IMG/VR virus record: IMGVR_UViG_2061766007_000586
Location: 128,001 to 192,000 of that record
Strand: one strand, 5' to 3'
Source of the DNA: a virus
Taxonomy: Duplodnaviria > Caudoviricetes
Length of the DNA stretch: 64,000 bases
Positions 52,061-52,926 of the stretch are shown here, piece by piece (the stretch's first letter is position 1; each line of letters starts with the position of its first letter). The notes beneath the pieces are model-generated. The model worked only from the letters and a program-made list of their open reading frames with translations, made no database searches and was not told the DNA's origin. A program made the position numbers and the translations under genes.

Positions 52061-52507
52061 TTACATACTCTCGAGGAAGAACTCTGCTTTTGGTATGAAA
52101 CTAAGTTCCATGATAGCAATCGGATCTCCTCGATCAGCATTGAAAATTGGTTTATGATTATTTTTAATTGTTAGAATAATTTCTGAATTATGTTCCGACG
52201 TAATCATGTAAGGGTTAATGACTTCTATTCCATCTTCTTCACGTAATTCTGGAATGGAATAAAATTTTGCAACTGTGTTAATTCTTATTTTAGGAGTTGT
52301 GTTAAGGGTTAATTCTGGATAGGTTAAAAGAATAATTCCAGTATGGACTTGAAGATAATTGTTATATGCTAAACTAATTTCTTGATTTGTTTTTAGATAA
52401 ACGATACCTAATTGATCTCGAAGGTAAGGTGATGGAACACATAAAGGTGAAGCATCATCTGTTAATTTATATCGTATATCTAAAACAGGAATAGTAATAA
52501 TCGCCAT
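52061..52507 (-). CDS. Degenerate trimeric dUTPase-fold protein
   Basis: VHTGI, EIILTIKN, GDPIAIMEL patterns present; catalytic motifs 2, 3 and 5 not recognisable. Confidence 0.55.
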   Translation of the reverse strand: MAIITIPVLDIRYKLTDDASPLCVPSPYLRDQLGIVYLKTNQEISLAYNNYLQVHTGIILLTYPELTLNTTPKIRINTVAKFYSIPELREEDGIEVINPYMITSEHNSEIILTIKNNHKPIFNADRGDPIAIMELSFIPKAEFFLESM

Positions 52508-52549: not shown

Positions 52550-52657
52550 TGGTTGGGACGTCTGGGTTTGAACCAGAATTGCCTTCTTGCTGCCTAGCAT
52601 CCTCGTTAGTACTAAGCTGGCGTACGGAGTCCTGCCTATACTTTAGACTACGTCCCA
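52550..52657 (-). ncRNA. tRNA-like RNA (108 nt) with non-canonical expanded anticodon region
   Basis: Acceptor TGGGACG/CGTCCCA, A, CCA; D-arm GTCT/AGGC; T-arm TCTGG-TTCAAAC-CCAGA; ~55 nt between D and T arms. Confidence 0.7.
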
Positions 52658-52660
52658 ATA

Positions 52661-52836
52661 TGATCGGCTGTTGCAAGATTCGAACTTGCTTCTCCAAACG
52701 TGAAACTATTAAACGGGATTAATCGATTAAATCTTACAATCTTCTTGAAGAAGGTGTTTCACATACTTGGTATGCTATCTTGTCCTGAAGTCGTACTAAG
52801 GTCGACCACGTGCTTCAACACTACACCAAACAACCG
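52661..52836 (-). ncRNA. tRNA-like RNA (~176 nt) with large insertion
   Basis: Acceptor CGGTTGTT/AACAGCCG then ATCA; D-arm GTGT/GCAC; T-arm GCAAG-TTCGAAT-CTTGC; ~120-nt structured middle. Confidence 0.65.
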
Positions 52837-52843
52837 AAATAAA

Positions 52844-52926
52844 TGGTGCTGAGGGCGGGACTCGAACCCGCATGGATTGCCCGGCAGATTTTAAGTCTGC
52901 TGCGTATGCCATTTCGCCACCCCAGC
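52844..52926 (-). tRNA. tRNA-Leu(TAA)
   Basis: GCTGGGG/CCTCAGC acceptor, anticodon arm GCAGA-CTTAAAA-TCTGC, variable arm, GCGGG-TTCGAGT-CCCGC, ACCA end. Confidence 0.95.

What the first reader, a model, noticed from the sequence alone, without database searches (positions are those of the whole stretch)
52550..52657. Second atypical tRNA-like RNA (108 nt) sharing a CTTAGTAC core with its neighbour
Seen: a perfect 7-bp acceptor TGGGACG/CGTCCCA with encoded A-CCA, plus D and T arms. About 55 nt lie between them, with no canonical 5-bp/7-nt anticodon arm; a GCCAGC...GCTAGGC stem is possible instead. The D-loop lacks GG. Both atypical RNAs carry the same 8-mer CTTAGTAC shortly after the D-arm although their acceptor stems are unrelated. 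U1-A72/G2/G3 resembles tRNA-Gln scaffolds. Inference: a family of tRNA mimics presenting a shared loop motif.
Basis: partly seen in the sequence, partly recalled or inferred. Interest (0 to 1): 0.72.

Follow-up and report, generated by a model that had tools for sequence, protein, structure and literature searches.

The report
Anticodon-less tRNA-shaped jumbo-phage RNA
A giant rumen phage encodes, just after a leucine tRNA, a conserved and expressed 108-base RNA with the ends and elbow of a tRNA but a folded 55-base insert where the codon-reading arm should be; it cannot decode, it belongs with the still unexplained tRNA-like stable RNAs of phages T4 and T5, and it may dock the phage's Ro60-like protein.

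Summary
On the minus strand at 52550-52657 lies a 108-nt RNA gene with a perfect 7-bp acceptor stem, A73, encoded CCA, a D arm without GG and a canonical T arm. A 55-nt insert replaces the anticodon arm.

It is not a tRNA, a class II tRNA or an intron-bearing tRNA:
- ARAGORN and Rfam do not call it.
- No 17-nt window forms an anticodon arm, and no single deletion restores one. The same deletion test recovers perfect tRNAs from two other enlarged RNAs of this genome.
- RNA-library contigs from four studies keep the insert.

It is under strong selection: 96% identical in a relative whose flanking DNA is about 70% identical. Its 9-10 bp hairpin covaries (pair 49:58).

The shared CTTAGTAC is real but weak evidence. 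It arises in 5% of shuffles, is a helix strand in this RNA, and its last base varies.

Best reading: a non-decoding tRNA-framed carrier RNA of the T4 rnaC / T5 RNA1 kind. A GCAGCAA right after the hairpin resembles a handle I found beside Ro60-like genes in 10 of 12 phages, but its flanks fit poorly (about 35%).

The scan has noted this class before on other DNA.

The parts
52550..52657 (-). RNA A: 108-nt anticodon-less tRNA-framed RNA gene (RNA position p = 52658 - window coordinate)
   Evidence: Sequence; fold; 96.3% conserved in L003; covered by RNA-library contigs
52651..52657 (-). Acceptor stem 5' strand (RNA 1-7, UGGGACG)
   Evidence: Pairs perfectly with 52554-52560
52634..52648 (-). 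D arm (RNA 10-24): 4-bp stem with 7-nt loop AAAGUAU, no GG
   Evidence: the A16C variant in contig X4 lies in the loop
52618..52632 (-). Invariant 5' segment of the insert (RNA 26-40), predicted mostly unpaired
   Evidence: No change in L003 or in any RNA contig; unpaired probabilities; no antisense target elsewhere in the phage genome
52593..52616 (-). Covarying hairpin (RNA 42-65): 9-10 bp with invariant loop AACGAG; its 5' strand holds the 8-mer CUUAGUAC (52609-52616)
   Evidence: Pair 49:58 is U-A (L003, X2), C-G (X3) or C.A (this phage). Pair 47:60 is U.G or U-A. G41U breaks the 41:66 pair
52587..52593 (-). GCAGCAA heptamer directly after the hairpin (RNA 65-71): candidate Ro-like handle
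   Evidence: Invariant in all variants. The core matches the motif found beside Ro-like genes. The flanks fit poorly
52578..52592 (-). Invariant 3' segment of the insert (RNA 66-80)
52561..52577 (-). T arm (RNA 81-97): 5-bp stem with loop UUCAAAC
   Evidence: the loop is UUCGAAU in L003
52550..52560 (-). Acceptor stem 3' strand, discriminator A and encoded CCA (RNA 98-108)
52660..52837 (-). Neighbour RNA B: about 176-nt anticodon-less tRNA-framed RNA, 2-3 nt upstream of A; same 8-mer at 52793-52800
   Evidence: conserved in L003 with a 20-nt indel in its distal arm
52844..52926 (-). Canonical tRNA-Leu(UAA), first gene of the Leu-B-A unit
   Evidence: ARAGORN; Rfam 58.4 bits; 100% identical in L003

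Best explanation
RNA A is a functional, non-decoding small RNA built as 'tRNA chassis plus payload'.

Transcription and processing (inferred from the anatomy): it is transcribed with tRNA-Leu(UAA) and RNA B as one precursor. It is then cut out by the tRNA maturation enzymes, RNase P at the 5' end and 3' trimming to the encoded CCA, because it keeps the parts those enzymes read: a 7-bp acceptor stem stacked on a canonical T arm.

Payload (shown): it has no anticodon arm and cannot read codons. In its place sits a 55-nt insert made of a selected 9-10 bp hairpin flanked by two invariant, mostly single-stranded 15-nt segments.

Function (inferred): the insert is a docking site for a protein, so the RNA works as an adaptor or tether in the manner of Y RNAs. 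The most likely single partner, at about 35%, is the phage's own Ro60-like DUF2828/vWA protein, bound through the helix followed by GCAGCAA.
For: tRNA frame intact but no anticodon arm:
-.
- The same single-deletion test recovers perfect tRNA-Ile(GAU) and tRNA-Thr(AGU) from RNAs C and D of this genome. It gives at best 2 of 5 stem pairs for A.

Selection:
- 96.3% identity against 69-71% for the flanks.
- All four insert changes seen in nature fall in the hairpin. Three of them keep or improve its pairing, with U-A / C-G covariation at 49:58; the fourth (G41U) only opens the outermost 41:66 pair.
- Both flanking segments never change.

Expression and no splicing:
- RNA-library contigs from four studies cover Leu-B-A continuously, with no joint.
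- They give no cover on the adjacent coding DNA in the same query.

Gene spacing of 2-7 nt, as in tRNA operons.

Precedents with the same build sit in the T4 and T5 tRNA clusters.

Ro-like lead:
- The genome encodes a DUF2828+vWA protein. Its homologues in 710 phage records are often annotated Ro-like.
- [AG]CAGCAA after a helix strand occurs 26 times on the gene strand beside that gene in 10 of 12 diverse phages, against 4 on the other strand.
- A carries GCAGCAA directly after its hairpin. The core heptamer alone has p about 0.015 for a 55-nt window.
- The same spelling heads the Rfam-detected YrlA of phage Calm.
Against: - No binding, processing or end-mapping data exist. Contigs cannot show RNA ends or abundance.
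- The Ro-like link is weak for A specifically. With flanking positions included, its site is no better than chance (P 0.09-0.31) and scores below 27-28 of 28 genuine sites.
- The first base is G, seen in 1 of 28 sites.
- Its first two bases are predicted to be paired in this phage.
- The gene for the protein lies about 50 kb away.
- Neighbour B lacks the motif.
- The DUF2828 protein has no sequence match to solved Ro60 structures and no TROVE hit.
- Only near-identical homologues of A were found, so covariation rests on three or four variants.
Confidence: 0.55

Rival explanations
1. Decoy or competitor for tRNA-handling proteins. The intact acceptor/T-arm half, and perhaps the hairpin, soaks up or diverts a host factor that recognises tRNAs, without any dedicated phage partner. 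Candidates are an anticodon nuclease or another tRNA-targeting defence, a modification enzyme, an aminoacyl-tRNA synthetase or EF-Tu.
For: - The tRNA frame is perfectly kept and CCA is encoded.
- The RNA sits in a tRNA operon of a phage with 20 tRNAs of its own.
- Related phages carry different non-decoding tRNA-like RNAs in the same slot (L004), as expected for fast-evolving conflict genes.
- The T4 and T5 analogues also lack a known partner.
Against: - A decoy for an anticodon nuclease should display an anticodon-like loop, and A has none.
- The strict invariance of two 15-nt segments that are not tRNA-like points to a specific function of the insert rather than of the frame.
Confidence: 0.2
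2. One reading: A and B are members of one family of tRNA mimics that present the shared CUUAGUAC element as a recognition loop.
For: - The 8-mer is exact in both RNAs and lies at a similar distance from the D arm.
- It is unchanged in B in every variant seen.
- RNA D of this genome has the anticodon loop UUAGUAA.
Against: - p is only about 0.05 for a shared 8-mer, and the similarity does not extend further.
- In A the 8-mer is a helix strand with covariation, and its last base changes.
- The structural contexts in A and B differ.
- The 7-mer is common in the genome: 34 copies, none in other tRNA-like RNAs.
Confidence: 0.08
3. An intron-bearing or insert-bearing decoding tRNA: the extra bases are removed, or tolerated as a side arm, to give a working tRNA.
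For:
- Two other enlarged RNAs of this genome (C and D) do become perfect tRNAs after one deletion.
- The genome lacks tRNA-Phe and tRNA-Trp.
Against: - The ARAGORN model has a mismatched stem and an implausible 21-nt variable region.
- No single deletion gives more than 2 of 5 stem pairs, and no 17-nt window has both 5 pairs and U33.
- No spliced joint appears in RNA contigs that span the insert.
- No RtcB ligase is encoded in the genome.
Confidence: 0.03
4. A decaying tRNA pseudogene or a mere processing spacer with no function of its own.
For: The D loop lacks GG and the middle is unrecognisable as tRNA.
Against: - 96% identity against about 70% for the flanks.
- Compensatory change in the hairpin.
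- Perfect acceptor and T stems.
- Retained together with B in a diverged relative.
Confidence: 0.04

Closest known systems
Phage T4 species 1 and 2 stable RNAs (rnaC, 139 nt; rnaD, 119 nt)
   Same: Encoded at the end of a tRNA gene cluster on the tRNA strand. rnaC has a canonical T arm (CCGGG-UUCGAAU-CCCGG) and an acceptor-like terminal helix around a large non-tRNA middle. No anticodon, and function unknown.
   Different: No sequence similarity: blastn of the locus against 50,697 phage records matched only the tRNA-Leu part. rnaC's terminal helix is imperfect. Neither T4 RNA has CAGCAA (rnaD has ACAGCAG). I do not know of a Ro-like gene in T4; this was not checked here.
Phage T5 RNA1, RNA2 and RNA3, annotated 'tRNA-like stable RNA with unknown functions'
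   Same: They lie among tRNA genes. RNA1 and RNA2 keep an acceptor helix and a T arm, with 50-70 extra nt in the middle.
   Different: Unrelated inserts. RNA1 keeps a tRNA-Leu-type D arm, whereas A has a 4-bp D stem with a short loop lacking GG. No CAGCAA.
YrlA-type Y RNAs with Ro60/Rsr (Rfam RF02553; Chen et al. 2014, PMC4201824)
   Same: A tRNA-like domain (acceptor, D and T arms) joined to a protein-docking helix. M. smegmatis YrlA is cut by RNase P and receives CCA (PMC4201824). The phage here encodes a Ro-like protein.
   Different: The topology is reversed. In YrlA the RNA ends lie in the Ro-binding stem; here they lie in the acceptor stem and the candidate handle is a closed hairpin. 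There is no Rfam YrlA match. The published GNCGAA(N)G motif is absent, and the candidate element is GCAGCAA. A is not encoded beside the protein gene.
This genome's own enlarged tRNA-shaped RNAs C, D and E and the 252-nt RNA near the DUF2828 gene
   Same: Same tRNA frame plus an insert holding a hairpin followed by an (A/G)C(N)GCAA element.
   Different: C and D keep complete anticodon arms and carry the module as a side arm at stem position 28/29, while A has no anticodon arm. A's insert shows no significant sequence similarity to theirs. A's motif flanks are atypical. A lies 43-51 kb away from them.

Membership tests
Canonical tRNA (Rfam RF00005) | 7-bp acceptor stem, discriminator, T arm with a UUCRANY loop | tested here: met
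Canonical tRNA (Rfam RF00005) | Anticodon arm: 5-bp stem, 7-nt loop with U33 and R37 | tested here: not met
   The best window has 4 pairs without U33, while the tRNA-Leu control scores 5/5
Canonical tRNA (Rfam RF00005) | Detected by tRNA finders or the covariance model | tested here: not met
   ARAGORN default gives no call. Rfam gives no match even at E 10 in a 651-nt search
Class II (long-variable-arm) tRNA | Normal anticodon arm followed by a variable-arm hairpin | tested here: not met
   No anticodon arm exists anywhere between the D and T arms
Intron-bearing tRNA | Removing one contiguous segment restores a canonical anticodon arm | tested here: not met
   Best result is 2 of 5 pairs. 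The same test gives 5/5 for RNAs C and D
Intron-bearing tRNA | A spliced form is present in RNA | tested here: inconclusive
   No joints in RNA-library contigs, and the contigs span the insert. However, contigs can miss short mature forms
T4/T5-type tRNA-like stable RNAs | Encoded within a tRNA gene cluster on the tRNA strand, a few nt from neighbouring tRNA genes | tested here: met
   Leu-B-A with 2-7 nt spacers
T4/T5-type tRNA-like stable RNAs | tRNA-like terminal helix and T arm, with no decoding arm | tested here: met
   compared with rnaC and with T5 RNA1 and RNA2
T4/T5-type tRNA-like stable RNAs | Accumulates as a discrete stable RNA | tested here: inconclusive
   Present in RNA-library contigs of four studies with no cover on the flanks. 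Ends and abundance cannot be read from contigs
T4/T5-type tRNA-like stable RNAs | Sequence homology to rnaC, rnaD or T5 RNA1-3 | tested here: not met
   blastn against all phage records matched only the tRNA-Leu part
YrlA / Y RNA (RF02553) | Match to the Rfam model; GNCGAA(N)G element in the basal stem | tested here: not met
   No hit at E 10. The motif defined in PMC4201824 is absent from the sequence
YrlA / Y RNA (RF02553) | Encoded next to the Ro60 gene | tested here: not met
   The DUF2828 gene is at genome 229.7-231.2 kb and RNA A at 180.6 kb
YrlA / Y RNA (RF02553) | Bound by Ro60/Rsr | not testable with these tools
   Needs immunoprecipitation or a gel-shift assay
DUF2828-associated 'helix + CAGCAA' RNAs (apparently undescribed) | Core [AG]CAGCAA immediately 3' of a helix strand | tested here: met
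   GCAGCAA at RNA 65-71, after hairpin 42-64/65. Core-only P 0.015
DUF2828-associated 'helix + CAGCAA' RNAs (apparently undescribed) | Flanking context typical of genuine sites: 2-3 nt unpaired spacer, A first, A/U-rich 3' side | tested here: not met
   Weight matrix with flanks gives P 0.09-0.31, below 27-28 of 28 leave-one-out sites
DUF2828-associated 'helix + CAGCAA' RNAs (apparently undescribed) | Motif conserved while the neighbouring helix varies | tested here: met
   Invariant in L003 and in contigs X2 and X3; only close relatives are available

The most novel reading that the evidence does not exclude
RNA A is a one-piece, 'unpermuted' Y-RNA analogue. A tRNA frame with free acceptor ends and CCA carries, in place of the anticodon arm, a closed helix plus GCAGCAA that docks the phage's Ro60-like DUF2828/vWA protein. 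It would belong to an undescribed class of phage Y-like RNAs that differs from published Y RNAs in two ways: the protein handle is CAGCAA rather than the published CGAA element, and the genes are scattered through tRNA clusters up to 50 kb from the protein gene.
Probability: 0.35. Interest if true: 0.7.

Novelty: new member of a known kind. Interest (0 to 1): 0.5.

Why it matters
tRNA-like stable RNAs have been known in T4 and T5 tRNA clusters for about fifty years without a function. This RNA is a clean, strongly selected and expressed example from a jumbo phage. It has a simple anatomy: a tRNA frame, one covarying hairpin and two invariant single strands.

It also has one concrete candidate partner, a Ro60-like protein encoded in the same genome. 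That turns 'what do these RNAs do' into a direct binding experiment.

The side result may matter more. An (A/G)CAGCAA element marks RNAs beside DUF2828-type Ro-like genes in phages of very different hosts, and it differs from the published Y RNA motif.

Tried and rejected
Homologue searches:
- Flanking-protein searches in viral contigs with the 510-aa, 1679-aa and DUF2828 proteins and the dUTPase-like alignment found no relatives.
- Exact and gapped DNA patterns from RNA A in viral contigs gave either nothing or chance hits inside coding regions: L005, L021-L025.
- In bacterial genomes the only hit was a chance match in Nocardiopsis coding DNA.
- The only true homologues came from the single metagenome scan (L002-L004).

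Readings tested and dropped:
- Intron reading: rejected.
- Class II tRNA reading: rejected.
- Antisense targets of the invariant segments in the phage genome: none.
- Sequence similarity of the A or B inserts to the other enlarged RNAs: not significant, including a shared 10-mer between B and the 252-nt RNA that caught my eye.
- A second, weak DUF2828-like gene at 287.5 kb has no motif-bearing RNA beside it.
- RtcB: absent.
- Sigma-70-type promoter or terminator between the three genes: none.
- The 10-nt palindrome UUAGUACUAA in A is broken in L003, so it is not a selected feature.

I first favoured the Ro-handle reading at about 60%. I lowered it after the weight-matrix test with flanks.

Full report
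**Where it lies.** The window is bases 128001-192000 of a 318.6-kb IMG/VR virus record judged complete. It is a jumbo phage of about 35% G+C, and its large virion protein is distantly related to those of phiKZ-like phages. The finding lies on the minus strand. Reading that strand, three genes follow each other 2-7 nt apart:
- a canonical tRNA-Leu(UAA) at 52844-52926 (ARAGORN; Rfam 58.4 bits);
- RNA B, about 176 nt, at 52660-52837;
- RNA A, 108 nt, at 52550-52657, which is the finding.

A 148-aa ORF starts 43 nt further on. One source names a homologue of it a dUTPase, but it has no Pfam match.

**Observation.**
- Acceptor stem UGGGACG/CGUCCCA, with U8, discriminator A and encoded CCA.
- D stem GUCU/AGGC with loop AAAGUAU, which has no GG.
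- T arm UCUGG-UUCAAAC-CCAGA.
- 55 nt between the D and T arms.

My own genome-wide scan for '7-bp acceptor stem plus adjacent T arm' recovers A, B and the known tRNAs. Neither ARAGORN nor the Rfam tRNA model, even at E 10, calls A.

**Is it a tRNA in disguise?** No. Three tests say so.
1. Over all 17-nt windows between the D and T arms, none gives a 5-bp stem with a 7-nt loop carrying U33 and R37. The best has 4 pairs and loop CCAGCUU, whereas the neighbouring tRNA-Leu scores 5/5. That excludes a class II tRNA.
2. I removed every possible single contiguous segment and asked whether a canonical anticodon arm remains. For two other enlarged tRNA-shaped RNAs of this genome the test works cleanly. 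RNA C (genome 223437-223551) becomes tRNA-Ile(GAU) after removing 39 nt. RNA D (231594-231707) becomes tRNA-Thr(AGU) after removing 41 nt. Both inserts sit between stem positions 28 and 29. For RNA A the best solution has 2 of 5 pairs. ARAGORN's 'Val(AAC) with a 17-nt intron' has a mismatched stem and is not credible.
3. RNA-library contigs from four separate bovine and sheep gut studies cover Leu-B-A continuously with no joint. Two of them span the whole of A with its insert.

**Is it functional?** Yes, on three grounds.
- *Conservation.* In the metagenome relative L003 the order Leu-B-A is kept and followed by a tRNA-Trp. tRNA-Leu is 100% identical, RNA A 96.3% (104/108), and RNA B 96% outside a 20-nt indel. 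The adjacent coding gene is only 68.8% identical and the spacer upstream of tRNA-Leu 70.8%.
- *Structure.* L003 and the contigs supply natural variants: G60A, C49U, A58G, G41U and A16C, plus two T-loop changes. All four changes inside the insert fall in one hairpin. Pair 49:58 is U-A in L003 and X2, C-G in X3, and a C.A mismatch (read as a bulge) in this phage. Pair 47:60 switches between U.G and U-A. G41U only opens the outermost pair. This supports a 9-10 bp hairpin (42-50/56-65) with the invariant loop AACGAG. The two flanking 15-nt segments (26-40 and 66-80) never change and are predicted to be mostly unpaired.
- *Expression.* In all four RNA libraries the contigs stop short of the coding DNA on either side within the same 601-nt query. 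That argues against plain DNA carry-over. Contigs cannot give RNA ends or levels.

**The shared 8-mer.**
- CUUAGUAC is in both A and B, but an exact 8-mer or longer is shared by 4.9% of dinucleotide shuffles of the two inserts.
- The best local alignment is just the 8-mer (p about 0.09).
- In A it forms the 5' strand of the covarying helix, and its last base is U in L003 and X2. In B it is part loop, part stem.
- CTTAGTA occurs 34 times in the genome and in no other tRNA-like RNA.

I therefore do not accept it as a presented recognition loop, though common descent of A and B cannot be excluded.

**The Ro60-like lead.** Earlier notes of this scan, which I treated as unchecked, suggested that other tRNA-shaped RNAs of this genome are partners of a Ro60-like protein through a 'hairpin + ACAGCAA' handle. 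I tested the parts I could.
- *The protein.* The genome encodes a 504-aa protein with DUF2828 and vWA-type domains, in PHROG 850 'RNA-binding protein'. tblastn finds homologues in 710 phage records, many annotated 'Ro-like RNA binding protein'. It has no TROVE hit and no sequence match to solved Ro60 structures, so its Ro60 likeness rests on domain build and others' annotation. I did not fold it.
- *The motif across phages.* I examined twelve diverse loci, from phages of Mycobacterium, Listeria, Salmonella, Bacillus, Vibrio, Staphylococcus, Sinorhizobium, Campylobacter and others. [AG]CAGCAA occurs 26 times on the gene's strand outside the gene, in 10 of the 12 loci, always just after a helix strand. 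It occurs 4 times on the other strand, which is the chance level.
- *Relation to known Y RNAs.* In phage Calm one copy, spelled GCAGCAA, heads the Rfam-detected YrlA. The published Ro60 element is GNCGAA(N)G or 'CGAA' (PMC4201824; PMC12135203), so this is a different element. I found no paper on RNAs partnering DUF2828 proteins.
- *Location.* In FelixO1 and Bacillus phage 2S-4 these modules are interleaved with tRNA genes. In the gut-phage fragment L010, whose protein is the closest homologue (55%), two of them sit inside tRNA frames.

**Does RNA A carry that handle?**
- *For.* It has GCAGCAA directly after its hairpin. The heptamer never varies. Only 7 such heptamers lie in non-coding parts of the whole genome, and three of the others are the modules in RNA C, the 252-nt RNA and a small RNA beside the DUF2828 gene. 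Core only, P is about 0.015 for a 55-nt window.
- *Against.* I built a weight matrix from 28 genuine sites, with A excluded. Once 2-12 flanking positions are included, A's site is no better than random genomic windows (P 0.09-0.31). It scores below 27-28 of the 28 sites in leave-one-out. Its first base is G (1 of 28 sites). Its first two bases are predicted to pair within the hairpin. The protein gene is about 50 kb away. Neighbour B has no such motif. The insert has no other similarity to the Ro-adjacent RNAs.

I put this reading at about 35%.

**What it most likely is.** RNA A is a non-decoding 'tRNA chassis plus payload' RNA.
- *Shown:* the intact frame, the absence of any decoding arm, strong selection on the frame, on the hairpin's pairing and on two single-stranded segments, and presence of the unspliced RNA in RNA libraries.
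- *Inferred:* maturation by RNase P and 3' trimming to the encoded CCA, from the anatomy and from the precedent of M. smegmatis YrlA (PMC4201824); and a docking role for the insert.

The closest known objects are T4 rnaC/rnaD and T5 RNA1/RNA2/RNA3. All lie in tRNA clusters, and rnaC, RNA1 and RNA2 have acceptor-like helices and T arms around foreign middles; all are of unknown function. There is no sequence homology to them. Earlier notes of this scan list many similar anticodon-less tRNA-shaped phage RNAs in other genomes, so the class is recurrent and this is a new member, not a new kind.

**Limits.**
- Only very close homologues of A were found.
- The covariation rests on one doubly changed pair.
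- No tool here can show binding, RNA ends or charging.

Noticed in passing
Loci L009-L020 (phage records) and G000 genome 223498, 231496, 231756: An (A/G)CAGCAA element just after a helix strand marks small RNAs beside DUF2828-type Ro-like genes in 10 of 12 very different phages: 26 copies on the gene strand against 4 on the other. It differs from the published Y RNA element GNCGAA(N)G.
   Followed up: partly
G000 genome 223437-223551 and 231594-231707 (minus strand; outside the window): RNAs C and D are perfect tRNA-Ile(GAU) and tRNA-Thr(AGU) once a 39- or 41-nt side arm is removed. Both side arms are inserted between anticodon-stem positions 28 and 29, and each carries a hairpin plus ACAGCAA or ACUGCAA. 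The genome has no other tRNA-Ile(GAU).
   Followed up: partly
L004:1031-1104: A second rumen relative has, in the slot after tRNA-Leu(UAA), a 74-nt tRNA-like gene instead of B and A. It has a 6-nt 'anticodon' loop (CCCAGG) and a D arm and T arm resembling those of RNA A. It may be an insert-free cousin of A.
   Followed up: no
L003:3050-3075 versus window 52740-52750: RNA B of the relative carries a 20-nt insertion and several paired substitutions in its distal arm. RNA contigs X2 and X4 show similar insertions (15-19 nt) at the same point, so that arm is a hot spot for change while B's first 90 nt are invariant.
   Followed up: no
L012:3200-3960 (Salmonella phage FelixO1): Four near-identical modules, CAGAAGACC + 4 nt + ACAGCAA, are interleaved with the tRNA genes just downstream of the Ro-like gene. 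None is annotated in the record.
   Followed up: no
G000 genome 127217-127293 and 199021-199114 (minus strand; outside the window): My acceptor-plus-T-arm scan finds two further tRNA-frame candidates (77 and 94 nt) that ARAGORN did not call.
   Followed up: no
window 52061-52507 (minus strand): The 148-aa ORF right after RNA A has 62-67% identical homologues in metagenomes, one of them named dUTPase by its source. It matches no Pfam or PHROG family.
   Followed up: no
L026:1554-1672 (phage T4 rnaD): T4 species 2 RNA contains ACAGCAG near its 3' end, one base off the CAGCAA element. This is probably chance.
   Followed up: no
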